A DNA stretch of 26,349 nucleotides from an uncultured Lachnospiraceae bacterium (GTDB taxonomy: Bacteria; Bacillota; Clostridia; Oscillospirales; CAG-272): NCBI GenBank assembly GCA_964609165.1, contig CAZSSE010000001.1, positions 1 through 26,349 on the forward strand, given 5' to 3'. This document shows positions 2,954 to 19,244 of the stretch, piece by piece. Under the pieces are notes generated by a model. It did not search any database. It was not told the DNA's origin and saw only the letters and a program-made list of their open reading frames with translations. Each line of letters opens with the position of its first letter. Position 1 is the stretch's first letter. The position numbers were made by a program, and so were the translations under genes.

Positions 2954-3847
2954 ATGAAAAAAGTAAAAATCATCACCGATTCCTGCGCAGACATTGGCGC
3001 GGATATTCTGCAAAGGTATGATATTGATTACGTAAAAATGTCAACCATTGAAGATGGCAGGGAGGCTCCCGCACTTCTGACATGGAGTGCAGCAGATGCA
3101 CATAAACTTTATGATACCATTCGAGGCGGAAAGCGCATTATGACCGCACAGGTGTCGGTGGAAGAGTTTACTGCTGTTTTCACGAAGTATCTGGAGGAGG
3201 GCTACGATATTGTGTATATCGCCTGTTCCTCCAAGCAGTCAGGCTCTGTAAATACCGGTTACGTTACGGCTAAGGGCTTGCTGGAGAAATATCCGGACGG
3301 CAAGATCATCTGCATCGATTCTCTCAATGCAAGTATGGGCGAAGGTATGCTGGCTGTCGAGGCGGCAAAGCTTGCGGCAGAGGGTAAGAGCGCTGATGAG
3401 ATCCACAGCTATATTTTATCGATCCGAAAAAGGGTAAATCAATTTGTTACTGTACATACTCTCGATCACCTGAAAAAATCAGGTCGAGTTTCGGCGTCAT
3501 CCGCATTCTTTGGAAATTTAATGGGAGTAAAGCCGATTCTCATTTCAGATGTGGACGGTACACAAACGGCAGTCAAAAAGGTAAAAGGCAGACAGACCTC
3601 ATTTACCGAGATCGTAAAATGCCTGAAGGAAGCTATTGTTGAGCCGGAGAAGCAGATGGTATATATAGCTCATGCCGACTGTAGCAAGGAGGAGCTTGAA
3701 AGGCTTGTTACTCTTGTAAAGGACGAGATCCCTTGCAAGGATGTTTACATTGGACTGATCGGTCCTATCATCGGTGCCTCTATCGGTCCTGACGCAGTTG
3801 CAATTTGGGGATTTGGACAAGAGGTAACGTATAAAGCGGGAGAGTGA
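2954..3847 (+). CDS. degV: DegV-family fatty-acid-binding protein (FakB-like)
   Basis: IITDS, SSKQSGS, IDSLNASMGEG and TLDHLKKSGR motifs typical of DegV. Confidence 0.93.
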   Translation: MKKVKIITDSCADIGADILQRYDIDYVKMSTIEDGREAPALLTWSAADAHKLYDTIRGGKRIMTAQVSVEEFTAVFTKYLEEGYDIVYIACSSKQSGSVNTGYVTAKGLLEKYPDGKIICIDSLNASMGEGMLAVEAAKLAAEGKSADEIHSYILSIRKRVNQFVTVHTLDHLKKSGRVSASSAFFGNLMGVKPILISDVDGTQTAVKKVKGRQTSFTEIVKCLKEAIVEPEKQMVYIAHADCSKEELERLVTLVKDEIPCKDVYIGLIGPIIGASIGPDAVAIWGFGQEVTYKAGE

Positions 3848-3849
3848 GA

Positions 3850-5481
3850 ATGAGAACTTTAGACGGCATACTTTTCGCCAGAATGATCAATTCCGGAGCG
3901 GCAAGCCTAAAGGCGCACGCAAAGGAGGTAAACGATTTAAACGTATTTCCCATTCCCGACGGTGACACGGGCGACAATATGCTTATGACGATGATGGGTG
4001 GTGTCCATAAGGATTTCGATTGTGAGTCACTGTGCGAGGTAGCAGAGCGCGTGTCGAGCGGAATGTTGATGTCGGCACGCGGTAATTCGGGTGTAATTTT
4101 GTCGCAGTTCTTTGAGGGAATAAAAAACGGTTTTTCCGGACTTCATTCGGCAGATACTGACGCAATCGGCAGGGCCTTTCGCAATGGGGTAACGCAGGCG
4201 TATCAATCGGTTATGACACCGACCGAGGGAACCATCCTGACGGTCGTGCGCGAGGCAACCGAGTACGCTTGCAAGCAAAACACAGAAACGCCCGAGACAT
4301 TTCTGAACGCCTTTATAGAAGAAGCAAAGTTGTCTCTCGCAAGAACGCCCGAGCTTTTGCCCGTGCTGAAAAAAGCAGGTGTGGTCGATTCGGGTGCGGC
4401 AGGTCTCATTTATATCGTGGACGGAATGATGAGAGCCGTGATCGGCGAGGATGTGTCGGATATTACCGAATTTTCCGAGCACGCGCAGGAGCTTGATCTT
4501 GATGCATTCAATGAAGATAGTGTGTTGGAGTACGGATATTGTACCGAGCTTCTCGTTCGCTTACAGAATGTCAAGACCGATATATCGGCTTTCGACGTAA
4601 ATGTAATTACCGATTATTTGCAAACGATAGGCGATTCCATTGTTACCGTTCGCAACGGTAGTATAGTCAAGCTCCACGTACATACGATGACACCGCAAAG
4701 GGTGCTTGATTTCTGTCAACAATACGGCGAATTTCTCAAGGTCAAGATAGAAAATATGTCCTTGCAGCACAATAATACCGTTATCGAGGAAAAGAAATCT
4801 GCCCCTATGAAGGAGCGTAAAAGGTATGGTGTTGTTGCCGTTGCCTGCGGTGAAGGACTGAAAGAGACCTTCCGCGACAGAGGCGCGGACGTGATCGTAG
4901 ACGGCGGGCAGAGCATGAATCCATCCGCTGAGGATTTTATCGAAGCGTTTGATGAGGTTAATGCGGATGTGATCTTCGTATTTCCAAACAATAGCAATAT
5001 CATGCTGGCAGCACAGCAAGCGGCGCACTTATATGACAGCTCAGATGTGCGTGTGATCGAAAGCACCACAATCGGCGCGGGTTATGCGTCCCTTGCCATG
5101 CTGGATACGACCTCGGGGGATACCGATACGATCGTCGAGGAGCTCCAAATGGCAATGGAGGGCGTTGTGACTGCCGAGATCTCTCACTGTGTCCGAGATG
5201 CCGTAATTGATGGAAACGAAATGCACACCGGTGATTATATTGGCTTTGTCGGTAAAAGGCTTCTTTCTGTAAACCTAGAAAGACTTAATACAGTGTGTGA
5301 AGCCATAGAAAGGATCGGTTTTGAAGCCTACGACGTTTGTATTCTTTTTTGCGGTAAGGATGCGACCGAGGAGGAAGCTGAAAAAATCGAGGCTTACTTA
5401 CATTCTCACTACAAGGGAAAAGAGATATATATTATAAACGGTGGTCAGGACGTATACGATTATATTATGGTCATAGAATAA
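3850..5481 (+). CDS. fakA: DAK2-domain fatty acid kinase catalytic subunit (FakA-like)
   Basis: LNVFPIPDGDTGDNM, ARGNSGVILSQ, EGTILTV, GVVDSGA, YGYCTE, HVHT and KIENM motifs. ATG 3850 is 7 nt after GGAG; the alternative start is GTG 3844. Confidence 0.92.
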   Translation: MRTLDGILFARMINSGAASLKAHAKEVNDLNVFPIPDGDTGDNMLMTMMGGVHKDFDCESLCEVAERVSSGMLMSARGNSGVILSQFFEGIKNGFSGLHSADTDAIGRAFRNGVTQAYQSVMTPTEGTILTVVREATEYACKQNTETPETFLNAFIEEAKLSLARTPELLPVLKKAGVVDSGAAGLIYIVDGMMRAVIGEDVSDITEFSEHAQELDLDAFNEDSVLEYGYCTELLVRLQNVKTDISAFDVNVITDYLQTIGDSIVTVRNGSIVKLHVHTMTPQRVLDFCQQYGEFLKVKIENMSLQHNNTVIEEKKSAPMKERKRYGVVAVACGEGLKETFRDRGADVIVDGGQSMNPSAEDFIEAFDEVNADVIFVFPNNSNIMLAAQQAAHLYDSSDVRVIESTTIGAGYASLAMLDTTSGDTDTIVEELQMAMEGVVTAEISHCVRDAVIDGNEMHTGDYIGFVGKRLLSVNLERLNTVCEAIERIGFEAYDVCILFCGKDATEEEAEKIEAYLHSHYKGKEIYIINGGQDVYDYIMVIE

Positions 5482-5494
5482 ATCGGAGGGGAGA

Positions 5495-6124
5495 ATGAAG
5501 GTATTTCTTTACATAGCGGCGGCGATATGCGGATATGTTGTAGCAGGAATGAATCCCGCCATTACCCTCTCAAGGGCAATATACAAAAAAGATATACGAG
5601 AATGTGGGAGCGGCAATCCCGGCTTTACCAATTTTAAAAGAACCTTTGGCAACAAATGGGCATGGTGGGTGCTCGTGCTTGATCTATCCAAAGCCGCAGT
5701 CGTCGTAGGAATTTTTGCTTGGCTTTTGTCCCGTCATGGCGTGGATTTTCAGCTTGGAGCGTCATACACGGGAATGTTTTGTATGCTCGGTCACGCTTTT
5801 CCGCTTGAATATCAATTCAAGGGCGGTAAGGGATTTCTTGTCTGCTTGTCTACTATGTATATAATCGATTGGCGCGTGGGATTGATCGCAACGGGAATTA
5901 TGGTCGCGCTGCTGTTGATTACCAAATATATGTCGCTTTCTACCACAATTGCAATGCTTCTGTGCCCGATTTTGCTTATCCCGTTCGGTGCATCGCTCCC
6001 GGTTATCCTAATGGCGTCATTTTGCTCGATATTTATGACGGTCAGACACAAGGAAAACTTCAAACGACTTTTCAAGGGAACTGAATCCAAATTTTCTATC
6101 AAAGGCAAGAAGGATAAAAAGTAA
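5495..6124 (+). CDS. plsY: Acyl-phosphate:glycerol-3-phosphate acyltransferase
   Basis: DIRECGSGNPGFTN, DLSK, GHAFP...FKGGKG and RHKENFKRL motifs. Confidence 0.93.
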   Translation: MKVFLYIAAAICGYVVAGMNPAITLSRAIYKKDIRECGSGNPGFTNFKRTFGNKWAWWVLVLDLSKAAVVVGIFAWLLSRHGVDFQLGASYTGMFCMLGHAFPLEYQFKGGKGFLVCLSTMYIIDWRVGLIATGIMVALLLITKYMSLSTTIAMLLCPILLIPFGASLPVILMASFCSIFMTVRHKENFKRLFKGTESKFSIKGKKDKK

Positions 6125-6134
6125 AAATTGAAAT

Positions 6135-6848
6135 ATGATAGATAATGAGAAACGTACACAACACAAAGCGCTGAAAACATTCAGACGGATCTTTATGATC
6201 CTGTTTTGGGGCGTATTGCTTCTGCTTTGCTTTCTGAACAGAGAGAAAATATCGGTTGAAGGAATTGTCGATCTCGTTCCCAAGGACGCGGTTTTGTCCA
6301 TTGTCGTGATGCTGCTTCTTTTTGCCGTTAAAGGTGTTGCGGTCTTTATTTACGGTAGTATTCTTTATGCGGCAAGCGGTATTCTGTTTTCGCTTCCCGT
6401 GGCAATTATTGTGAATACTGTCGGGACAGTCATAATGACGACTATTCCGTTTTACATAGGGAAGAAGGCGGGAAGGCGAATGATCGGCGAGCTTGTCAAG
6501 AAAAACTCTAAGTTGGAAATTCTGCAAGACACTCAAAACAAAAATGAATTTCTCGTCAGCTTCTTTCTTCGCATGGTCGGGCTTTTGCCTTCAGATCTTG
6601 TGGCAATGTATCTTGGTTCAAGCGGAATGTGCTACAAGCCATACCTCTTCGGAACCGTCATTGGACTTATGCCTTCTATCGTGTGCTTTTCCGTTATGGG
6701 AATGAGCATTGATGACGTTGGTTCACCGCAATTTATAATATCTTTGATCGTAGAAGCGGGACTTATGCTTCTCGCACTTGTCATTTATTTTATTTGGAAA
6801 TGTAAGAACAAAAAGAAACGTGAGATGATGAACAATGATGAAGCATAG
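6135..6848 (+). CDS. TVP38/TMEM64 (VTT domain, DedA superfamily) membrane protein
   Basis: Multi-TM protein with SGILFS...G...NTVG...FYIGK and FFLRMVGLLPSDLV...G motifs. Confidence 0.85.
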   Translation: MIDNEKRTQHKALKTFRRIFMILFWGVLLLLCFLNREKISVEGIVDLVPKDAVLSIVVMLLLFAVKGVAVFIYGSILYAASGILFSLPVAIIVNTVGTVIMTTIPFYIGKKAGRRMIGELVKKNSKLEILQDTQNKNEFLVSFFLRMVGLLPSDLVAMYLGSSGMCYKPYLFGTVIGLMPSIVCFSVMGMSIDDVGSPQFIISLIVEAGLMLLALVIYFIWKCKNKKKREMMNNDEA

Positions 6849-7683
6849 CATGAATCTTTTGGTAACGTTGAATGAAGCCTATTTGCCGTACCTGAATACG
6901 CTTCTTTCTTCTGTTATTTATCATAATCCGGATACTTATTTCACCGTGTACCTGCTGCACACGTCAATTCGCAGGGAAGCGACCGAAAAAACAAATGCCA
7001 TTTTGGGGAAGAGCGGTAAGCTTGTTATGATCGAAGCCGAAGGTCACGGGCTTGACAATGCGCCTACTACCGACCGCTTTCCCAAGGAAATGTATTACCG
7101 TATTTTTGCGGCAAAATATTTGCCGGAGAATGTTAGTAGAGTTTTATATCTTGATCCTGACATCATTGTTAACGGATCGCTTGCAGAGCTTTATGATACA
7201 CCGCTTGACGGATATTATTTTGCGGCGGCTTCTCACAATGGGAGGGTGACGCGATTTATTAACGGAAAGCGTCTTCGCTTACAAAAGGGAGCTCCTTATA
7301 TCAATTCGGGCGTTCTTCTGATGAATCTTGATCTCTTGCGTAAGGAGCAGAAATATGAGAATGTATTTACCTATATCGAAAAGAAGGGAACCAAGCTGCT
7401 TTTGCCGGATCAGGATGTGATCAGTGGGTTGTACGGAGAACGAATTTTTAAGCTGAGTGCCTATATCTACAATATGACAGATCGCTTGTATCGTTATGAC
7501 CGAATATTCGGTAAGAGACATAAATTTGAATGGTATAAGGAAAACTCGGTTATTTTCCATTATTGTGGAAAAAACAAGCCGTGGAAAAAGAATTATTCCG
7601 GTGCTTTCGGGATTTTCTATAAAGAGACTCTTGCGCGAATGGGAAGCGCGTGTGAGGCAGAAGGGGGAGCTACATATGCATAG
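6835..7683 (+). CDS. Glycosyltransferase family 8 (GspA/RfaJ-like)
   Basis: MYYRIFA, RVLYLDPDIIV (DxD), YINSGVLLMNL, DQDVI and HYCGKNKPW motifs. Start uncertain (6835, 6838 or 6850). Confidence 0.9.
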   Translation: MMKHSMNLLVTLNEAYLPYLNTLLSSVIYHNPDTYFTVYLLHTSIRREATEKTNAILGKSGKLVMIEAEGHGLDNAPTTDRFPKEMYYRIFAAKYLPENVSRVLYLDPDIIVNGSLAELYDTPLDGYYFAAASHNGRVTRFINGKRLRLQKGAPYINSGVLLMNLDLLRKEQKYENVFTYIEKKGTKLLLPDQDVISGLYGERIFKLSAYIYNMTDRLYRYDRIFGKRHKFEWYKENSVIFHYCGKNKPWKKNYSGAFGIFYKETLARMGSACEAEGGATYA

Positions 7684-8242
7684 AATATTTAAGAAAAAAC
7701 AAATACTTACCATACCGAACCTGCTTAGCTTGGTTCGCCTTGCGCTCATTCCTGTAATCGTTTGGTTGTACAGCTATGAGCAGAAATATTACGCCGCGAT
7801 AGGTGTGATCATTCTGTCCGGCGCGACAGATATTATCGACGGTTGGATCGCGCGGCATTTTCATATGATATCAGACTTTGGAAAGATCCTTGACCCCGTA
7901 GCGGACAAGCTGACGCAGGCAGCAATGCTTTTATGCTTGCTGTCAAAATATAAATTGATGTGGGGACTTGTAATATTGTTTGCGCTTTGTGAGATAACCA
8001 AGCTGATACTCGGTGCTGTTGTTATGAAAAAGCACGACGAGGTTAACAGTGCAAAATGGTATGGAAAGATGAACACTGTGGTTATTTACGTAACAATGAT
8101 GCTTTTGATTTTGTTCCCTCAAATGCATAGTGTTCTGGCAAACGCGCTGATGCTGCTTTGCGGTACCGGTATGATAATCGCTCACGTGCTGTATTTTGTA
8201 TTCCTTGGCAATATTCTGCTTGATAGGAGTCACCGCGGATGA
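7676..8242 (+). CDS. CDP-alcohol phosphatidyltransferase (PgsA-like)
   Basis: IPNLLSLVR and the signature DIIDGWIARHFHMISDFGKILDPVAD. Start at ATG 7676 after GGGGGAG, not the ORF-track 7496. The acceptor alcohol is not certain. Confidence 0.9.
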   Translation: MHRIFKKKQILTIPNLLSLVRLALIPVIVWLYSYEQKYYAAIGVIILSGATDIIDGWIARHFHMISDFGKILDPVADKLTQAAMLLCLLSKYKLMWGLVILFALCEITKLILGAVVMKKHDEVNSAKWYGKMNTVVIYVTMMLLILFPQMHSVLANALMLLCGTGMIIAHVLYFVFLGNILLDRSHRG

Positions 8243-9048
8243 TTAAACGAACACTTACGGGAGCTGTGATATTGGTGTTCGTGTATGCGTGGCTTTTATT
8301 TTCACATATCCCGATCGTTTTATACATAGGAACACTGATATTGAGTGCTTTAGCTGTTCTTGAAATTATGAGAATTTGCAGGACCGACAATCATAAAGTG
8401 CTTTACGGTACAATAGTAATATATGCTTTGCTGTTGCTATTGCCCATACCGAGGTACGAATACCCGATGATGTTGATATTTCCCGCTGCCTTGATCATGT
8501 TCGGATTTATGATGGCGGATAAGGAGAAATTTCGGATATTCAATCCTGCTTTTGCAATCGTAGTCAGCATTACGGTTATATTGCTTTTCAAGGCTATTCC
8601 GACGCTGAGATCGATGGATAACGGATTTTATTATTTGACATTTGCAGTAACGTCTTGTTTTGTAACCGACATTGCTGCATTTTTGTTTGGCAGGGCTTTT
8701 GGCTCGCATAAGCTGTGTCCAAAAATAAGTCCCAAGAAAACGGTTGAGGGAGCGATAGGTGGTGCGGCGTGTGCCGTTATCATCTCCATGCTTGCCGCGG
8801 TTATTTTGCACAGGCTTGCAAAATTACACTTTAGCGTCATTGTGCTCGTAATATGGGCTGTGCTTGTATCTGTTATAGGTCAGCTTGGCGATCTTTGTAT
8901 GTCGGTCGTCAAGCGTATTGCGGGAGTAAAGGATTTTGGCGCGCTATTGCCCGGACACGGCGGTATTCTTGACCGATTTGACAGTCACGTTTTAGCCATA
9001 CCGTTTACGCTTGTCTTCTGTGTGTTGACGGGTGGATTTATTCGGTAA
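8239..9048 (+). CDS. cdsA: Phosphatidate cytidylyltransferase
   Basis: ISPKKTVEG and KDFGALLPGHGGILDRFDS signatures. ATGA overlap with the upstream gene. Confidence 0.93.
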   Translation: MIKRTLTGAVILVFVYAWLLFSHIPIVLYIGTLILSALAVLEIMRICRTDNHKVLYGTIVIYALLLLLPIPRYEYPMMLIFPAALIMFGFMMADKEKFRIFNPAFAIVVSITVILLFKAIPTLRSMDNGFYYLTFAVTSCFVTDIAAFLFGRAFGSHKLCPKISPKKTVEGAIGGAACAVIISMLAAVILHRLAKLHFSVIVLVIWAVLVSVIGQLGDLCMSVVKRIAGVKDFGALLPGHGGILDRFDSHVLAIPFTLVFCVLTGGFIR

Positions 9049-9184: not shown

Positions 9185-9198
9185 GGGGATTATATAAA

Positions 9199-10095
9199 TT
9201 ATCCTTTATGAACATTACTTTGATACAATTCAACAATTCCTTTCAATACGTCCAAATGGGCAAAGTCCTTGTTGTAGGCAATATTCATTTCACGCATCAT
9301 ACTCAGATTTTCAATAGGAAGAATAGTCAGCTTTCCTTTCTTTGCCTCGCTGATGCAAGCGCTTCGGGGAAGAATAGATACGCCGAGCCCCTTTTTTACA
9401 AGCTCATTTATCGTAGAAACATTATCCACCTCCAAAGACACGTTAAAATTATCTATAGACTCGTTCATACTGATAAGTGTCGCTTCAAACAACTGTCTTG
9501 TTGCGGATGTGGGTAAACGCAGGATCATGTTTTGCTTTTTCAGATCATTTATCGTAACCAAAGAATGCTTTGCAATCGGATTATCGTTGCTCATTACGCA
9601 AACCAGATAGTCTGTATCCACCATAAAGTAATTCAGCTTGGCGGAGTGACGTTTTCCCTCCACGATGGCAATATCAAGCTCGTAATTCTCAAGCATATCA
9701 TAAAGATTATTTATGGTATCAGTAATTATCGTTATACTTACGTGCGAGTATTGGTTCACGTATTTTGCCAATATTTCCGAGATCATATTGTTCTCGGAGG
9801 TATGGGTAATACCGATACGAAATCTTGAAACGTGCTTTTGCTCATCAGCAATTTCGAATAGCATTTTTTCGTGCAGTGCTTTCAATCTTCTTGCGTATGT
9901 AACGGCAATTTCTCCTTCCGGCGTAAGTCTGAAATCCCCCTTGCCGCGCACAAAAATCTTTGCATTGCACTCTTTTTCAAGCTGACAGATATGGTTACTT
10001 ACGGCGGGCTGTGTCAGCGACAGGATCTTAGCTGCTTTCGTGAAATTCTTACAATCGGAGACCACAAGCAGTGTTTCAAGCTTTACATCTAACAT
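9199..10095 (-). CDS. LysR-family transcriptional regulator
   Basis: N-terminal HTH NFTKAAKILSLTQPAVSNHICQLE plus a PBP2 effector domain. RBS GAGGT; divergent from the antiporter/ATP synthase cluster. Confidence 0.95.
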   Translation of the reverse strand: MLDVKLETLLVVSDCKNFTKAAKILSLTQPAVSNHICQLEKECNAKIFVRGKGDFRLTPEGEIAVTYARRLKALHEKMLFEIADEQKHVSRFRIGITHTSENNMISEILAKYVNQYSHVSITIITDTINNLYDMLENYELDIAIVEGKRHSAKLNYFMVDTDYLVCVMSNDNPIAKHSLVTINDLKKQNMILRLPTSATRQLFEATLISMNESIDNFNVSLEVDNVSTINELVKKGLGVSILPRSACISEAKKGKLTILPIENLSMMREMNIAYNKDFAHLDVLKGIVELYQSNVHKG

Positions 10096-10147
10096 AGCAT
10101 ATACCTCTACTATAAAATAAATTTATCAATACCTAAAAAAATATAAG

Positions 10148-10176
10148 TTGACATTATAATATTTTTAGTATATCAT
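10148..10176 (+). promoter_or_regulatory. Putative sigmaA promoter of the antiporter-mgtC-atp cluster
   Basis: TTGACA (10148-10153), 17 bp, TATCAT (10171-10176). Confidence 0.55.
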
Positions 10177-10613
10177 ATAATAGATCAATTTGCAAGCGGA
10201 GAAGTGCATTTTGTGAAAAATATTTTGATGATATTTAAGCGATTTTTCATTAAGCCTTCTGACGGCAGGTTGCTTTTGAAAGAACGATAGCAGGACGACT
10301 TGTTTTGCACGGCTGTGATCGACGGCACCGTAAAGGGGCGCGGAAGAAAATGGTTGATTTTTTTGGATCTTGCTTTGTTTTTATCAGTACTGTTTTTACT
10401 CGTCAGGGATGATTATATAGAAGCGCACACGCTATCGTTTGGTACATATGCTTGCTGTTACGGTGGTCTGCGCTTTTTTATTTTGAAATTTGAAATCCGA
10501 CGATCTGAGTATCGGGACAGATGTGTATTATCGTAGGTTATGCGTCCTTATGCGTCTGCCCATTATTATTTACGAAAATACCGTAGCACTTGGCTACTAT
10601 GGAGGTATATGAA

Positions 10614-12071
10614 ATGTTGAATGGTCTTTACGAGCGCTTGGGGACACAATCGAATGTTGCTGTTATTATTATCTCTGTCGCCATTATGCTGATATGCGGA
10701 TTTTTAATGACTCGTGTTACGAAAAAACTACGTCTGCCAAACGTGACTGCGTACATAATAGTCGGTATTCTGATCGGACCGTATTGCTTGGATCTTATTC
10801 CGAAATCTATCATAGAAGGTACGGAATTTCTCGCCGACATCGCACTCGCGTTCATTGCATTCAGTACGGGAGAGTTTTTCAAATTTTCAAAGCTGAAAAA
10901 CAGCGTAGGCAAGGTCGTGGTCATAACGCTTGCCGAGGCGCTTTTAGCGTCTGTGCTTGTATTCGTTCTTTCCTTCTGGATATTGCATCTGAGCCTTGCC
11001 TTTTCTATCGTTCTGGCTGCACTTGCATCGGCAACTGCCCCCGCCTCTACGATGATGACGATCAGGCAGACGGGCGCGAAGGGCGACTTTGTAGATACGC
11101 TTTTACAAGTAGTTGCCTATGACGACATCGTGGCTCTTCTGGCTTACAGCATTGCCATCTCAGTTGCCGTCACCTACACAACAGGCGAAGCCTTCAGCTT
11201 TTTGAACATTGTTGTCCCCATTTTGAAAAATTTCGGAGCCCTGGCGCTTGGCGGCGTATTCGGATTACTTATGAAGCTTCTGATACATAGAAAACGGTCT
11301 ACCGACAATCGCCTGATTATCTCTATTGCGCTTTTGTTCGCATTTTGCGGTATATGCGCGGCGATGGATGTTTCTCCGCTTCTCGGATGTATGTCTATGG
11401 GAACGGTGTACGTCAATCTTGCAGATGATGATAAGCTATTTAAACAGCTAAACTATTTCAGCCCTCCTATTCTGCTTCTTTTCTTCGTTCGCTCGGGTCT
11501 TTCCTTTGATTTAAATGCTTTGGTAAATCCCTCCGGCGCGATTGGCGGTGTTTCACTCTTGCTGATCGGCGTGTTGTATTTCTTTGTACGTATTATCGGA
11601 AAATACGTGGGCGCATTTCTTGGCTGTCTTTGTGTTAAAAAGCCCGTCAGAACCCGTAATTATTTGGGGCTCGCTCTTATTCCGCAGGCGGGAGTTGCAA
11701 TTGGTCTTGCGGCACTTGGTGCAAGAACGCTCGGCGGCGATGTCGGAAATGCCTTGCAGACCATTATACTTGCTTCAAGCGTGCTTTACGAGTTGGTCGG
11801 TCCCGCTTGCGCAAAGCTCTCGCTTTATTTGTCAAAATCGTATTCAACTAAGCTTGAAGACATAGTTCCTCTTAATAAAGAGCCGAGCACCGAGGAAAAA
11901 CCTAAAAACACCGTCGAGGAATTGATCGAGAGAATACAGATCATCCAAGGCGAGCTTGCAAAAGAGAAAATTAACGAAGAGGAGCACGCATTTACAGAGG
12001 CGGCTGAGGAACATTTTGAGGCTTTGTCGGTTCGCCATGCCTATCTTGCCTCGGGAGGAAAGAGAAAATGA
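10614..12071 (+). CDS. CPA2-family cation:proton antiporter with a charged helical C-terminal tail
   Basis: About 12-13 TM helices; LPNVTAYIIVGILIGP, ATAPAST, VAYDDI and RIIGKY motifs. ATG 10614 lies 7 nt after GGAGGT. Confidence 0.88.
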   Translation: MLNGLYERLGTQSNVAVIIISVAIMLICGFLMTRVTKKLRLPNVTAYIIVGILIGPYCLDLIPKSIIEGTEFLADIALAFIAFSTGEFFKFSKLKNSVGKVVVITLAEALLASVLVFVLSFWILHLSLAFSIVLAALASATAPASTMMTIRQTGAKGDFVDTLLQVVAYDDIVALLAYSIAISVAVTYTTGEAFSFLNIVVPILKNFGALALGGVFGLLMKLLIHRKRSTDNRLIISIALLFAFCGICAAMDVSPLLGCMSMGTVYVNLADDDKLFKQLNYFSPPILLLFFVRSGLSFDLNALVNPSGAIGGVSLLLIGVLYFFVRIIGKYVGAFLGCLCVKKPVRTRNYLGLALIPQAGVAIGLAALGARTLGGDVGNALQTIILASSVLYELVGPACAKLSLYLSKSYSTKLEDIVPLNKEPSTEEKPKNTVEELIERIQIIQGELAKEKINEEEHAFTEAAEEHFEALSVRHAYLASGGKRK

Positions 12072-12778
12072 TAGATCCTATTGCAAAAATACTTGGTGAA
12101 TGGTCTCAGGAGCTGAACGGATACAGTATTTTATTCAGAATTGTTTTATCGGTGACGCTTGCCGCCGTGATCGGCTGTGAGCGTTCAAGCAAACGTCACT
12201 CGGCAGGACTTCGCACCTTTATATTGGTGTCCTTGGCTATGACGGTGACTATGCTCCTTGACGGATATTTAATGGGAACGGGCACATACGTTCTCTCGGG
12301 CGCAGGCATTATAGGTGTGGCAATTATCAGCGTAAATTCCTTGCTTGTAAGCTCACGAAGTCAAATTAAGGGCTTGACCACTGCCGCAGGGCTTTGGACC
12401 TGCGCGATCATCGGTCTTGCGGTGGGAGCGGGTTACTACACGGTTACGTTTATTGCGTTTGGCGTACTGCTGTGCTGCCTTTCGATCTTCCCGTCGTTGG
12501 AGCGTTATTTGAAAAACAGATCTAACCATTTTGAAATACATCTTGAATTAAAAGATAACAGCTATCTCGAAAACTTTGTTACGACGATACGCAGGCTTGG
12601 CTTGCGCATTGATGATATTGAGGCAAATCCAGCTTACGCAGGCTCGGGGCTGAGCGTATATTCTATCGCAATTTCGATCAGCAGCCAGGAGCTGAAAAAG
12701 TATAAAACACACACAGAGATCATCGAGGCACTTCGCAGCTTGGATTACATTTGCCACATAGAAGAAATGTTACTTTGA
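12068..12778 (+). CDS. mgtC: MgtC/SapB-family membrane protein with an ACT-like C-terminal domain
   Basis: IGCERSSKRHSAGLRT and KGLTTAAGLW signatures. ATGA overlap with the antiporter. Confidence 0.9.
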   Translation: MIDPIAKILGEWSQELNGYSILFRIVLSVTLAAVIGCERSSKRHSAGLRTFILVSLAMTVTMLLDGYLMGTGTYVLSGAGIIGVAIISVNSLLVSSRSQIKGLTTAAGLWTCAIIGLAVGAGYYTVTFIAFGVLLCCLSIFPSLERYLKNRSNHFEIHLELKDNSYLENFVTTIRRLGLRIDDIEANPAYAGSGLSVYSIAISISSQELKKYKTHTEIIEALRSLDYICHIEEMLL

Positions 12779-12833
12779 TTTGGCACTTGATCTTTCCATA
12801 CCAAATGGTAAAAAATAAATGGAGAAAAATAAG

Positions 12834-13673
12834 ATGAAAACGAAAAAAAGGAACAAGAAACTGATTTTCCTTGCGTTTTGGCTTGCAACTATTGTATTGA
12901 TAGTTGTTGGAATAATATTGCTGTGGCCACCCGGAGCTAAGCATCAAACGATCAAAGAGGTCATGAAGGACGGAGTTTTGCATGAAGACAACAAGATGTC
13001 TTTATTTGGGCTTGAGGTAAATCCTGCGCTGATTTCCGCTTATACGGTTACGGCAATATTATTGCTTATAGCTGCACTTATAAGAATATTTGCAATACCA
13101 AAATTCAAGACCGTACCCGGTAAGCTTCAATGTGTTATCGAAAAGCTGGTGGAGTTCTTCTCGGATATGGCACACGCCAACAGTCATCACAGGCCACGTT
13201 TCGTGGGAGCGTATATATTCAGCGCGGGTATTTACATATTTTTCGGAACGCTGTTCGAGCTGTTCGGAGTACAATGGCTTACAACAGACGGGGTATCAGT
13301 GTCTCTCCCCGCGCCGTTATCGGATATCAATGCCGCAATAGCAATGGGAGTCATGTCATATATAATAATTCTCGGCGCAGGCATTATCTGCGGAGGCTTC
13401 CGCGGGGCACTCGGTGTCCTGAAGGACTTTTCGTTACCTATATCGATGAGCTTCCGCTTGTTCGGCGCACTGATCAGTGGATTGCTTGTTACCGAGCTTG
13501 TCTATTATTATGTAAGCCTCAGCTTTGTATTACCTGTAATCGTGGGAGTTCTGTTTACACTTTTACACGCTATCGTACAGACCTATGTGCTTGCAACGCT
13601 GGTATCGATATTCTACGGCGAAGCCGTTGAACCAAAGCCAAAGAAAGTTAAAATTAAGAAAGCTAAGAGGTAA
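12834..13673 (+). CDS. atpB: F1Fo ATP synthase subunit a, with an extra N-terminal hydrophobic helix
   Basis: VPGKLQCVIE, APLSDIN, PISMSFRLFG (essential Arg) and VQTYV...L motifs. ATG 12834 follows GGAG; the alternative start is 12819. Confidence 0.9.
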   Translation: MKTKKRNKKLIFLAFWLATIVLIVVGIILLWPPGAKHQTIKEVMKDGVLHEDNKMSLFGLEVNPALISAYTVTAILLLIAALIRIFAIPKFKTVPGKLQCVIEKLVEFFSDMAHANSHHRPRFVGAYIFSAGIYIFFGTLFELFGVQWLTTDGVSVSLPAPLSDINAAIAMGVMSYIIILGAGIICGGFRGALGVLKDFSLPISMSFRLFGALISGLLVTELVYYYVSLSFVLPVIVGVLFTLLHAIVQTYVLATLVSIFYGEAVEPKPKKVKIKKAKR

Positions 13674-13679
13674 ACTAAA

Positions 13680-14057
13680 ATGAAAAAAATTATATCTGTC
13701 ATTATATCATTGATTTTGATGCTTACACTTGTTGCGATGACGTCCGTCAGCGTTTCTGCCGCTGAGTCAGATTCTGCTCAAAGCGATGAAGCTGCTGCGG
13801 CTGTTGAAGAGACCGAGGCAAATAACAGCAGTGTTCTTTCTACTAAAGCTATCGCTGCCGCAATTGTTGTGGCGGTTGTTGGAGCGACGGGTGCCATCGG
13901 TATGGCGATCGCAATTTCCAAGAGTACCGACAGTATGGCTCGTCAGCCGGAAATAGCGGGAAAAATCAACTCGACAATGATGCTCGGCATCGTATTTATT
14001 GAAACTGCGATCATTTATGCCTTGATTGTCGCAATTCTTATTATATTTGTTTTGTAA
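13680..14057 (+). CDS. atpE: F1Fo ATP synthase subunit c with a ~51-aa N-terminal extension
   Basis: ARQPE loop and FIETAIIY ion-binding helix. RBS GAGGT before Met1. Confidence 0.93.
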   Translation: MKKIISVIISLILMLTLVAMTSVSVSAAESDSAQSDEAAAAVEETEANNSSVLSTKAIAAAIVVAVVGATGAIGMAIAISKSTDSMARQPEIAGKINSTMMLGIVFIETAIIYALIVAILIIFVL

Positions 14058-14069
14058 GAGGGAACGAAT

Positions 14070-14591
14070 ATGCCACTCAACATAGATTTTTTGCAGATTC
14101 TTCTGCATATGCTGAATTTTGTTATTCTTGCGGGTGGTCTTACTTTTCTTCTGTTCAATCCGGTCAGCCGTTTTTTGGAACAGCGCAGGGAGCAGCTTGC
14201 CGAAGCGGAAAGGCGGAACCGAGAGTTAGCTGAAGAAAATGAAAGACTTAGAACAGAGTATGAGCAAAAGCTGCGTGATGCCGATAGGGAAATCTCGGAT
14301 AAGAAGAAAACGGTAGAGAAGGAATGGGCGGATATTTCCGAGCAATACATCGTAGAAGCAAAGGAGAAGGCATCTGCTATCATCATTGCCGCAGAGAAGG
14401 AAGCGGAAGACCGCAAGGAGCACATTCTTGAATCGGCGCAGGCTGAGATCGGTGAGCTTATTGTTACGGCAACGCAGAAACTACTCAGCGATACAGTAAC
14501 CCCAGAACGCAACAGTGCTTTATACGACGAGTTTATACGTGTTGCCGAAAGCACTACTGCAAAAAAGAGGTCAGAGCATGATAAAAAATGA
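14070..14591 (+). CDS. atpF: F1Fo ATP synthase subunit b
   Basis: N-terminal TM (NFVILAGGLTFLLFNPV) followed by a long charged coiled coil; position after atpE. Confidence 0.9.
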   Translation: MPLNIDFLQILLHMLNFVILAGGLTFLLFNPVSRFLEQRREQLAEAERRNRELAEENERLRTEYEQKLRDADREISDKKKTVEKEWADISEQYIVEAKEKASAIIIAAEKEAEDRKEHILESAQAEIGELIVTATQKLLSDTVTPERNSALYDEFIRVAESTTAKKRSEHDKK

Positions 14592-16356
14592 GTTTGATAA
14601 TACTCACATTAAAAAGCACGATGCTTTAAGAGTTGAAATTCAGTGCGTCACACCTCCAAATGAAGATCAGCTTGCTAAGATGCGAGAGTTCTTTTTGCAG
14701 GAGTATGATGCAGAGGATATTGATTTCTTAATTAAAAAAGATCCAAGCGTAGTTGGCGGCTTTCGTATCTTTGTCGGTGATGAAAACTACGATTGGAGCA
14801 CTCTCGGACGTATTCGTCAGCTCAGAAAATCCTTTGAGTCCATAAAAAAAGAATATGATCCTGCACAAATCGTATCGCTTCTTCGCGAGAATATAAACAG
14901 CTTTGAGCTTCGCGCAGGACATCAGCAGGTAGGCTTTGTGGTTTCTGTCGGCGACGGTATTGCAATAATAAAAGGATTGCATGAGGTTGAGTACGGAGAG
15001 ATCGTTCTGTTTGACTGTGGTGTAAAGGGAATGATACAGGATATTCGTGCCGACGGTACAAACGGTATCATTCTTTTTGGTGATGATTCTGAAATATACG
15101 AGGGTAGCCGCGTGGTAAGAACACAGCGTACCGCAGGTATTCCTATCAGCACGAAAATACTCGGAAGAATTGTTGATCCTCTTGGCAATCCAGTGGATAA
15201 TGGCGGTGAGATCGGAGCTAAAGAGTATTATCCGATCGAACGCTCTGCCCCCGGTATTATCGAGCGAAAGACCGTAAACAGACCGCTTGAAACGGGAATC
15301 CTTGCGATAGACTCTATGTTTCCCATAGGGCGAGGTCAACGCGAGCTGATCATAGGTGATCGTCAGACGGGAAAGACAACGATCGCAACCGACACGATCA
15401 TCAATCAAAAGGATAAGAATGTTGTTTGCATATATGTTGCGATAGGACAGAAGGCTACCTCCATAGCAAAGGTCGTTTCCACGTTGAAAAAGCATGGCGC
15501 TATGGACTATACGGTAGTTGTTTCCTCTCCTGCAAGTGATGCGGCATCATTTCAATACATTGCGCCCTATTCCGGCTGTGCTATTGCCGAATACTTTATG
15601 TACCACGGCAGAGATGTGCTGATAATTTATGATGATCTGTCCAAGCACGCAGTTGCATACCGTACACTAAGCCTTTTGCTGGAACGCTCACCCGGAAGGG
15701 AAGCCTATCCCGGTGATGTGTTCTATCTTCATTCAAGACTTTTAGAGCGTTCCGCGCAGCTTTCGGATAAATTGAGCGGCGGAAGTATGACCGCTCTGCC
15801 GATTGTTGAAACACAGGACGGAGACGTTTCGGCATATATACCGACGAACATTATTTCCATAACAGACGGTCAGATATTCTTAGAGAGCGAATTATTCTTT
15901 GCAGGTCAGCGACCTGCTATCAATGTCGGTCTTTCTGTTTCCCGTGTCGGAGGAACTGCACAGACAGATGTTATGAAAAAGTCGGTCGGAACTGTTCGCC
16001 TTGATTTGGCGCAGTATCGTGAGATGCAGGTATTTTCGCAGTTTGGCGGTGATTTGGATGCGAGTACGGTGCGACAGCTAAAGTATGGCGCAGGTCTTAT
16101 GCAGCTTCTTCGTCAACCAAACAATTCGCCGTTGAGCTTGTACAGACAGGTTATTACCTTGATATGTGCACAGGCAAGGCTGTTCGTAGATGTGCCGATC
16201 AAAGAAATCAAAACGGTACAGCAAGAGCTTCTCACATATTTTGAACAGCACAACAGTGCCATATGTCATAAGATCGAACACAGTAAGATCTATTCGGATA
16301 AATTGAAAAACGAGATTATTGATACGGCGAAGCAGTATATTGCAAGCCGTAAATAA
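14578..16356 (+). CDS. atpA: F1 alpha subunit with an N-terminal delta/OSCP C-terminal-domain fusion, 592 aa
   Basis: Walker A GDRQTGKT, PGREAYPGDVFYLHSRLLER and SVSRVGG. The first ~90 aa contain the delta signature DPSVVGGFRIFVGDENYDWS. ATG 14578 follows GAGGT. Confidence 0.95.
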   Translation: MIKNEFDNTHIKKHDALRVEIQCVTPPNEDQLAKMREFFLQEYDAEDIDFLIKKDPSVVGGFRIFVGDENYDWSTLGRIRQLRKSFESIKKEYDPAQIVSLLRENINSFELRAGHQQVGFVVSVGDGIAIIKGLHEVEYGEIVLFDCGVKGMIQDIRADGTNGIILFGDDSEIYEGSRVVRTQRTAGIPISTKILGRIVDPLGNPVDNGGEIGAKEYYPIERSAPGIIERKTVNRPLETGILAIDSMFPIGRGQRELIIGDRQTGKTTIATDTIINQKDKNVVCIYVAIGQKATSIAKVVSTLKKHGAMDYTVVVSSPASDAASFQYIAPYSGCAIAEYFMYHGRDVLIIYDDLSKHAVAYRTLSLLLERSPGREAYPGDVFYLHSRLLERSAQLSDKLSGGSMTALPIVETQDGDVSAYIPTNIISITDGQIFLESELFFAGQRPAINVGLSVSRVGGTAQTDVMKKSVGTVRLDLAQYREMQVFSQFGGDLDASTVRQLKYGAGLMQLLRQPNNSPLSLYRQVITLICAQARLFVDVPIKEIKTVQQELLTYFEQHNSAICHKIEHSKIYSDKLKNEIIDTAKQYIASRK

Positions 16357-16387
16357 GTGTAAATAAGTGTAAATAAGTGTAAATAAG
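16349..16387 (+). repeat. 10-bp tandem repeat (GTAAATAAGT) x3.9
   Basis: Three perfect units plus GTAAATAAG. The first unit contains the atpA stop codon. Confidence 0.95.
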
Positions 16388-16403
16388 AAAGAAGGGATGA
16401 TAC

Positions 16404-19147
<2,744 letters not shown>

Positions 19148-19244
19148 AGTGGTTTTTGGCTATTTATGTTGATGCGGCGGATCACGTTTTGCGTAAATGG
19201 TGTATGAAATAAGCAAATAAGAATTTGAAAGAGGAATATCTTAT

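What the first reader, a model, noticed from the sequence alone, without database searches (positions are those of the whole stretch)
14578..14856. Delta C-terminal domain fused to alpha; no free delta
Seen: residues ~17-86 of AtpA match the delta/OSCP C-terminal domain (V-x-C-V-T-P...DPSVVGGFRIFVGDENYDWS..GRIRQL), continuous in frame with alpha starting near DPAQIVSLLRENI. The delta N-terminal helical domain is missing. Established: that domain normally grips alpha N-termini, while the C-terminal domain binds b2; mycobacteria and N-ATPases fuse delta to b instead. Inference: a covalent stator anchor, with three delta domains per F1 of which only one can engage b2, leaving two free for other partners.
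Basis: partly seen in the sequence, partly recalled or inferred. Interest (0 to 1): 0.68.

Follow-up and report, generated by a model that had tools for sequence, protein, structure and literature searches.

The report
Mobile delta-alpha fused ATP synthase
This gut Clostridia bacterium builds the stalk-binding half of ATP synthase subunit delta into every alpha subunit, the same design that gave an engineered enzyme up to three stalks and twice the protons per ATP; the design was already noted in another bacterium, but here it comes with a remodelled membrane motor and, in close relatives, travels on a conjugative element.

Summary
Confirmed. AtpA (14578-16356, 592 aa) carries the delta C-terminal domain in frame (Pfam OSCP 88-171/172, E 8e-10). 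No free delta was found in the genome (80% complete). The fusion is no artefact: 689 homologues, 36 species-level genomes, saturated synonymous sites, no internal Met or conserved slippery site. Ueno et al. 2025 engineered this fusion (PDB 9JC1, colinear here), obtained up to three b2-a stators and H+/ATP 5.8, and noted a natural case in Acidaminococcus. The scan has noted such fusions at least 32 times on other DNA. Added here: (1) the clade's Fo is remodelled in all members checked (subunit a about 13 residues shorter before the arginine helix, conserved Asn to Ala; H+-type, Ala-rich subunit c with export leader); (2) the LysR-antiporter-MgtC-atp block (9191-19168) is 88% identical to swappable cargo of a conjugative element; (3) it sits beside a V/A-type ATPase, and close copies occur in only 2 of 71 congeners. 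Best reading (0.6): a multi-stator, high H+/ATP, low-threshold enzyme. Stalk number and direction are untested.

The parts
14578..14625 (+). Variable, low-confidence N-terminal leader of the fused protein (residues 1-16)
   Evidence: Poorly conserved in alignment A1; pLDDT under 50 for most of residues 1-13
14626..14841 (+). Delta/OSCP C-terminal domain (residues 17-88), the b2-docking half of delta
   Evidence: Pfam PF00213 E 8.4e-10; fold matches delta/OSCP chains; 76% mean identity, pN 0.14 against pS 0.84 over 32 homologues
14842..14859 (+). Short linker joining the last delta helix to the alpha N-terminal helix
   Evidence: One residue shorter than the engineered linker of 9jc1; no Met in 37 homologues; slippery heptamer in only 4 of 37
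14860..16356 (+). F1 alpha proper: N-terminal helix, beta-barrel, nucleotide-binding and C-terminal domains
   Evidence: TIGR00962 706.6 bits over cut-off 484; N-ATPase alpha model TIGR03324 575.9 under cut-off 750.5
14070..14591 (+). atpF, subunit b (173 aa), normal length, conserved C-terminal delta-binding helix; overlaps the fused gene by 14 nt
   Evidence: PF00430; alignment A2
13680..14057 (+). atpE, subunit c with a signal-peptide-like leader and acidic linker; Glu108 present, Met75 at the Na+-ligand Gln position, Ala-rich inner helix: predicted H+-specific
   Evidence: Met at that position in 40 of 40 clade members
12819..13673 (+). atpB, subunit a with an extra N-terminal hydrophobic helix, a deletion of about 13 residues before the arginine helix, Arg213 and Gln254 kept, conserved Asn replaced by Ala217
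   Evidence: Ala in 41 of 41 clade members; spacing 46-47 in all 20 measurable against 59-60 outside
16404..17324 (+). atpG, gamma
   Evidence: TIGR01146 over cut-off
17311..18750 (+). atpD, beta, with intact Walker A motif
   Evidence: TIGR01039 over cut-off; sequence
18731..19147 (+). atpC, epsilon, with C-terminal helical domain
   Evidence: TIGR01216 over cut-off; PF00401 weak
9199..10095 (-). Divergent LysR regulator; left end of the mobile block
   Evidence: Pfam; 93% identical to the LysR of the element-borne copy
10590..12071 (+). CPA2-type cation/proton antiporter in the same block (start may be the ATG at 10614)
   Evidence: PF00999; TIGR00932 under cut-off; present in L149-L153
12068..12778 (+). 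MgtC/SapB-family membrane protein directly before atpB
   Evidence: PF02308; 97% identical in the element-borne copy; not beside the operon in the 36 genome loci read

Best explanation
A seven-gene F-type ATP synthase (a, c, b, deltaC-alpha, gamma, beta, epsilon) in which each of the three alpha subunits carries its own b2-docking domain and nothing caps the three-fold axis. SHOWN: the fusion, its conservation, the intact catalytic and ion-binding residues, the remodelled a and c, and carriage of a close copy on a conjugative element. FROM PUBLISHED WORK: this architecture binds up to three b2-a stators, and protons per turn scale with the number of a subunits. INFERRED: the native enzyme averages more than one stator, so H+/ATP is about 7-10 for a c10 ring and the balance point falls to about 50-80 mV. 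Above that it makes ATP from a gradient too weak for a normal enzyme; below it, it pumps many protons per ATP. I slightly favour ATP synthesis at low pmf, fed by Rnf and the co-encoded antiporter. In this cell it is an accessory, regulated H+ enzyme beside a probably Na+-using V/A-type ATPase. The shortened a and the Ala-rich (possibly wider) c-ring may make room for several stators; that link is inference only.
For: Best solved match is the engineered fusion 9jc1, colinear over residues 25-199 with one gap at the junction. Engineered enzyme: 2.2-fold a, 1.8-fold b, equilibrium pmf 68 against 133 mV, H+/ATP 5.8. Natural multi-stator F-type enzymes exist (Chloroflexus, PMC12002316). The domain is under strong purifying selection and so is the b C-terminus. 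30 of 36 clade genomes show no full-length delta. Complex prediction of b2 with residues 12-114: weak support, 0.52 against best control 0.26 (mark reached by 58 of 80 solved and 2 of 110 mismatched pairs, but at 0.60 or under by only 7 of the 80 and by both mismatches; runs agree in at least 80% of contacts, partner pLDDT at least 61); a like complex is solved, so this shows likeness only. Fo changes track this clade and are missing in unfused and full-delta-fused kin. rnfCDG follows the operon in four related loci and rnfD is in this genome. Thresholds computed.
Against: No native enzyme has been measured. Even the engineered enzyme showed only 26% double and 8% triple stalks by cryo-EM, mean 1.26. 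One operon must supply a and b at 2-3 times the usual ratio, and ribosome-binding-site strengths showed no such bias (a weak test). Subunit a has gained an N-terminal helix that could crowd the membrane. Eleven delta-C fusions of other lineages keep a normal a, so the Fo changes are not required by the fusion. The four rnf-adjacent loci are near kin, not independent. Ion specificity rests on sequence motifs.
Confidence: 0.6

Rival explanations
1. Single-stator enzyme. The fusion only tethers delta and simplifies assembly of a mobile operon; two of the three delta-C domains stay empty because a and b are limiting or extra stators do not fit. This is the core of the first reader's view.
For: 51% of engineered particles had one stalk and 15% none; no translational signal for extra a or b; extra N-terminal helix on a; fusions arose several times, also with full-length delta, as expected for adjacent, coupled genes.
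Against: Biochemistry of the engineered enzyme gave about two stators on average from a normal operon; three identical sites offer no way to limit binding to one; the N-domain is lost cleanly in several lineages.
Confidence: 0.27
2. Several stalks bind but proton stoichiometry does not add up: the extra stalks are mechanical braces as in V/A-ATPases, or the altered a subunits (Asn to Ala, shortened helix) form a shared or differently gated channel.
For: Clade-wide changes in a next to the essential Arg; V/A-ATPases have 2-3 stalks and one a.
Against: In the engineered enzyme every stalk carried an a, and H+/ATP rose in step; Arg and Gln of a and Glu of c are invariant here.
Confidence: 0.09
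3. The fusion is not the working form: an assembly error, a frameshift or restart at the junction, proteolytic release of delta-C, or a full-length delta supplied from another operon.
For: An A-run lies at the junction here; 6 of 36 clade genomes also encode a canonical delta in a second F-type operon; this genome is only 80% complete.
Against: 689 full-length homologues with the same domains; no Met after the domain in 37 of 37 and a slippery site in 4 of 37; constant short linker; 30 of 36 genomes without full delta.
Confidence: 0.04

Closest known systems
Engineered deltaDeltaN-alpha fused FoF1 of Bacillus PS3 (Ueno et al., Nat Commun 2025, PMC12229609; PDB 9JC1/9JC2)
   Same: Delta N-domain absent, C-domain joined to the alpha N-terminus by a short linker, same gene order, H+-type c
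   Different: Natural; linker one residue shorter; epsilon keeps its C-terminal domain; a and c remodelled; stalk number unmeasured
Natural delta-alpha fusions noted by the same paper: Acidaminococcus fermentans D2RLW6, UniProt G4Q3K6, A0A1I2C5T3
   Same: Same domain architecture, equally untested
   Different: This one is in Clostridia. I could not obtain those sequences, so common or separate origin is untested; nine delta-C fusions from other Bacillota classes fell outside this clade and lack its a and c features
Chloroflexus aurantiacus F1Fo (PMC12002316)
   Same: Natural F-type enzyme with more than one stalk and subunit a, each docked by a delta C-domain
   Different: Uses two free delta subunits dimerised by a shortened N-domain; two stalks, no fusion
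N-ATPase (Dibrova et al. 2010, PMC2881411)
   Same: No free delta; laterally spread as one block; often a second rotary ATPase
   Different: There delta-C is fused to b, the order is atpDCQRBEFAG with atpR, and c is mostly Na+-type; none of this holds here
Mycobacterial and Gordonia b-delta fusion (PMC5709465)
   Same: Covalent link inside the stator path
   Different: Fusing delta to one b keeps one stalk; fusing it to alpha triples the docking sites

Membership tests
deltaDeltaN-alpha fused FoF1 | Delta N-terminal domain absent | tested here: met
   OSCP match covers only profile positions 88-171; nothing in b or other frames
deltaDeltaN-alpha fused FoF1 | Delta C-domain in frame with alpha through a short linker | tested here: met
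deltaDeltaN-alpha fused FoF1 | No free full-length delta in the cell | tested here: inconclusive
   None found, but genome 80% complete; 30 of 36 clade genomes lack it, 6 have one in a second operon
deltaDeltaN-alpha fused FoF1 | b2 docks on the fused domain in the canonical way | tested here: inconclusive
   Weak support only, 0.52 against 0.26, possibly from likeness to solved complexes
deltaDeltaN-alpha fused FoF1 | More than one stalk and subunit a per F1; raised H+/ATP | not testable with these tools
   Needs purified enzyme
F-type ATP synthase | Full set a, b, c, alpha, beta, gamma, epsilon with Walker A in beta, Arg in a, carboxylate in c | tested here: met
N-ATPase | Gene order atpDCQRBEFAG with atpR | tested here: not met
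   Order is B-E-F-(H'A)-G-D-C with no gene between, in the window and 36 loci
N-ATPase | Long b carrying the delta C-part | tested here: not met
   b is 173 aa, TIGR03321 37.9 bits against cut-off 224.7
N-ATPase | Alpha and beta score as N-type | tested here: not met
   TIGR03324 and TIGR03305 under cut-off, atpA and atpD models over cut-off
N-ATPase | c with Glu in both helices and full Na+ motif | tested here: not met
   Met at the first position in 40 of 40; second Thr missing
N-ATPase | Always a second rotary ATPase | tested here: inconclusive
   True here and in about 16-17 of 36 genomes; the rest show only this c subunit but are draft bins
Chloroflexus-type double-stalk F1Fo | Free delta dimerised by a shortened N-domain | tested here: not met
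   No N-domain and no free delta gene in the operon
Cargo of an integrative conjugative element | Block flanked by relaxase, coupling protein, VirB4-like ATPase and recombinase | tested here: inconclusive
   Met for the 88%-identical copy; in this window the flanks are a lipid operon and redox genes, with no conjugation genes

The most novel reading that the evidence does not exclude
A naturally evolved triple-stator ATP synthase whose a and c subunits have been reshaped to seat three stators, with H+/ATP near or above 10, spread among gut Clostridia by conjugative elements as a plug-in 'low gear' for energy conservation at very low proton motive force.
Probability: 0.25. Interest if true: 0.85.

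Novelty: new variant of a known kind. Interest (0 to 1): 0.52.

Why it matters
The ion-per-ATP ratio sets the lowest gradient at which a cell can make ATP, and it was thought to vary mainly through c-ring size. If these enzymes carry several stators, about 7% of the Clostridia genomes in a family-balanced sample (27 of 400) would use a second way to change that ratio, and energy budgets of gut fermenters based on c-ring size would be wrong for them. A clade with its own a and c also offers a ready, evolved template for the stable multi-stalk enzyme that Ueno et al. said is needed. Carriage on conjugative elements would make a core bioenergetic setting a transferable trait. The fusion itself is not new: it is in print for another lineage and recurs in this scan.

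Tried and rejected
Assembly artefact, hidden stop or restart, conserved frameshift: rejected. Delta N-domain hidden in b or another frame: not found. N-ATPase membership: failed on order, b length, profile scores and c motif. MgtC and the antiporter as obligatory partners: they travel with this copy and its element-borne relative, and one congener has them on another contig, but they are not beside the operon in the 36 genome loci read. Ribosome-binding-site comparison for extra a and b: uninformative, the choice of starts biases it. AlphaFold model of subunit a (pLDDT 67) fused two helices into one and could not show whether the deletion shrinks its footprint. Plasmid collection: the best hit read (Acetoanaerobium) has separate delta and alpha genes; the other three were not read. 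Promoter and terminator scan: counts near chance. Acidaminococcus sequences could not be fetched (the supplement holds only a figure legend). Organism names in record titles proved unreliable (one titled Lachnospiraceae appears to be a same-genus genome), so I used group codes for distribution.

Full report
Observation. The gene after atpF starts at ATG 14578 behind an AGAGG site and runs without a stop to 16356 (592 aa, 65.9 kDa). Residues 2-85 match the second half of the Pfam delta/OSCP model (positions 88-171 of 172, E 8.4e-10, above the curated cut-off), and alpha begins at about residue 95 with its N-terminal helix intact. A model of the region has the four-stranded, two-helix fold of the delta C-domain, and its best structural matches are delta and OSCP chains. 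The operon is a-c-b-(deltaC-alpha)-gamma-beta-epsilon, with no atpI and no atpH. The fused domain is the only OSCP match in the genome, which is 80% complete.

It is not an artefact. A search with residues 1-130 gave 689 proteins; nearly all of the 120 listed are 591-594 aa and all carry the OSCP and alpha domains. Thirty-six species-level genomes hold the same operon in varied surroundings. Against 32 homologues the domain keeps 76% identity with synonymous sites saturated (pS 0.84, pN 0.14). No homologue has a Met between the domains and only 4 of 37 have a slippery heptamer. Thirty of the 36 genomes show no full-length delta; six have one in a second, canonical operon whose c subunit has the Na+ motif.

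What the design does. They argued that the delta N-domain sits on the three-fold axis and limits the stalk to one, deleted it, and fused the C-domain to alpha in Bacillus PS3. The enzyme held about two stators on average by gel, up to three by cryo-EM (15, 51, 26 and 8% with 0 to 3), each with a subunit a; H+/ATP rose from 3.0 to 5.8 and the equilibrium pmf fell from 133 to 68 mV. That construct (9jc1) is the best solved match to our residues 25-199, colinear with a linker one residue shorter. The paper also notes the same architecture in Acidaminococcus fermentans and two more UniProt entries, untested. Chloroflexus shows that a natural F-type enzyme can have two stators. A prediction of b2 on residues 12-114 gave weak support (0.52 against 0.26), which may reflect likeness to solved complexes.

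Distribution and history. In a family-balanced draw of 400 Clostridia genomes at least 90% complete, 36 had a stop-free delta-alpha junction: 27 of a size fitting delta-C only and 9 fitting full-length delta (my count). Ten more appeared among other Bacillota classes; nine were read and are delta-C fusions. In a tree of the alpha core, built without the delta part, our protein lies in a well supported clade (100/99) of 18 delta-C fusions. That clade nests among H+-type operons with separate delta or with full-length delta fused, while the fusions of other classes lie elsewhere. Several origins are likely, and 'fuse first, then lose the N-domain' fits, but the order is not resolved and I ran no AU test.

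The membrane motor of this clade is remodelled. All 41 a subunits checked have Ala for the Asn one turn after the essential Arg. The 20 that could be measured are about 13 residues shorter before that helix, and those aligned have an extra N-terminal hydrophobic helix. All 40 c subunits have Met at the Na+-ligand position; most have Ala in the glycine motif of the inner helix, and those read have an export-type leader. Ala in that motif widens the ring in alkaliphilic Bacillus (PMC2914638). Unfused and full-delta-fused kin, and the other delta-C fusions, keep the ordinary a. These changes could make room for several stators, but a model of a was too poor to test this, and the fusion clearly does not need them.

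It is accessory here and mobile in close relatives. The genome also encodes a V/A-type ATPase, whose K fragment shows two of the Na+ ligands, and RnfD. Among 71 congeners only two have a close copy, at about 70% DNA identity, and at least one a distant one; the others have a V/A-type enzyme (31 of 60), a canonical Na+ F-type, or neither detected. The block from the LysR gene to atpC (9191-19168) is 88% identical over 10,065 bases to a block lying between a VirD4 coupling protein and serine recombinases in gut metagenomes. The same backbone (VirB4-like ATPase, MobL relaxase, primase, VirD4; 95% identical over 10 kb) carries other cargo in another contig. An 82%-identical version seen on 376 contigs lies next to MobA/MobL, TnpW and a recombinase, with a different LysR. 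This window itself shows no conjugation genes. About half of the 36 genomes show no other rotary ATPase, so the enzyme may also serve as the main one.

Mechanism. With a c10 ring and ATP at 50 kJ/mol the balance point is 155 mV for one stator, 78 for two and 52 for three (ring size assumed). A multi-stator enzyme would make ATP at gradients where a normal one hydrolyses it, at the price of more ions per ATP, and would pump cheaply once the gradient collapses. Running beside an enzyme of lower ratio it could waste energy, which would explain a dedicated regulator and an MgtC homologue (from my own knowledge, Salmonella MgtC binds subunit a and inhibits F1Fo; not tested here). rnfCDG follows the operon in four related loci, a slight pointer to synthesis. 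I put 0.6 on more than one working stator, 0.27 on a single stator, 0.09 on non-additive stalks and 0.04 on the fusion not being the working form.

Verdict. Real and conserved; the architecture is known from engineering, was noted in nature in print, and recurs at least 32 times in this scan. What I did not find in the papers searched or in the scan notes I saw are the clade-wide changes in subunit a and the carriage as swappable cargo of a conjugative element. New variant of a known kind; interest 0.52.

Noticed in passing
window 13680-13832: Subunit c has a signal-peptide-like leader and acidic linker across the clade; with no atpI in the operon this may give host-independent membrane insertion.
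   Followed up: partly
window 12819-12935 and about 13395-13470: Subunit a has an extra N-terminal hydrophobic helix, a deletion of about 13 residues and Ala for the conserved Asn after the essential Arg, clade-wide.
   Followed up: partly
window 16349-16386: A 10-base unit is repeated three to four times head to tail between atpA and atpG; the spacer is 30 bases longer than in the element-borne copy.
   Followed up: no
L016, L034, L035, L036, downstream of atpC: An rnfCDG operon follows the fused atp operon directly.
   Followed up: partly
L089:2806-5067 (minus strand): A 753-aa ORF that looks like a b-like segment, a delta C-domain and alpha in one frame, in a same-order genome.
   Followed up: no
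P0286 (708 aa): Full-length delta fused to alpha, with what looks like a duplicated alpha N-terminal helix.
   Followed up: no
L083, L144, L146, L147: Full-length delta-alpha fusions with ordinary a and c, related to unfused operons (L140-L143) where delta ends a few bases before alpha.
   Followed up: partly
L023:2579-3589 and L041:5738-7006: The a ORF is longer than usual; in L023 (336 aa) no separate c ORF was found and the c match lies in the same frame, a possible a-c read-through or an assembly error.
   Followed up: no
L027, L029: The operon occurs in two bins titled Bacteroidaceae; cross-phylum transfer, mislabelling or mis-binning not resolved.
   Followed up: no
genus sample: Congeners mostly have either a V/A-type ATPase or a canonical Na+ F-type operon, and several genomes over 90% complete showed neither in these searches.
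   Followed up: no
window 2954-9048: A run of degV, fakA, plsY, VTT-domain, GT8, CDP-alcohol transferase and cdsA genes: a fatty-acid salvage to phospholipid cluster.
   Followed up: no
L098 (NZ_CP154629.1): A 2.6 Mb record listed as a plasmid carries a complete canonical atp operon and housekeeping genes; probably a chromosome.
   Followed up: no
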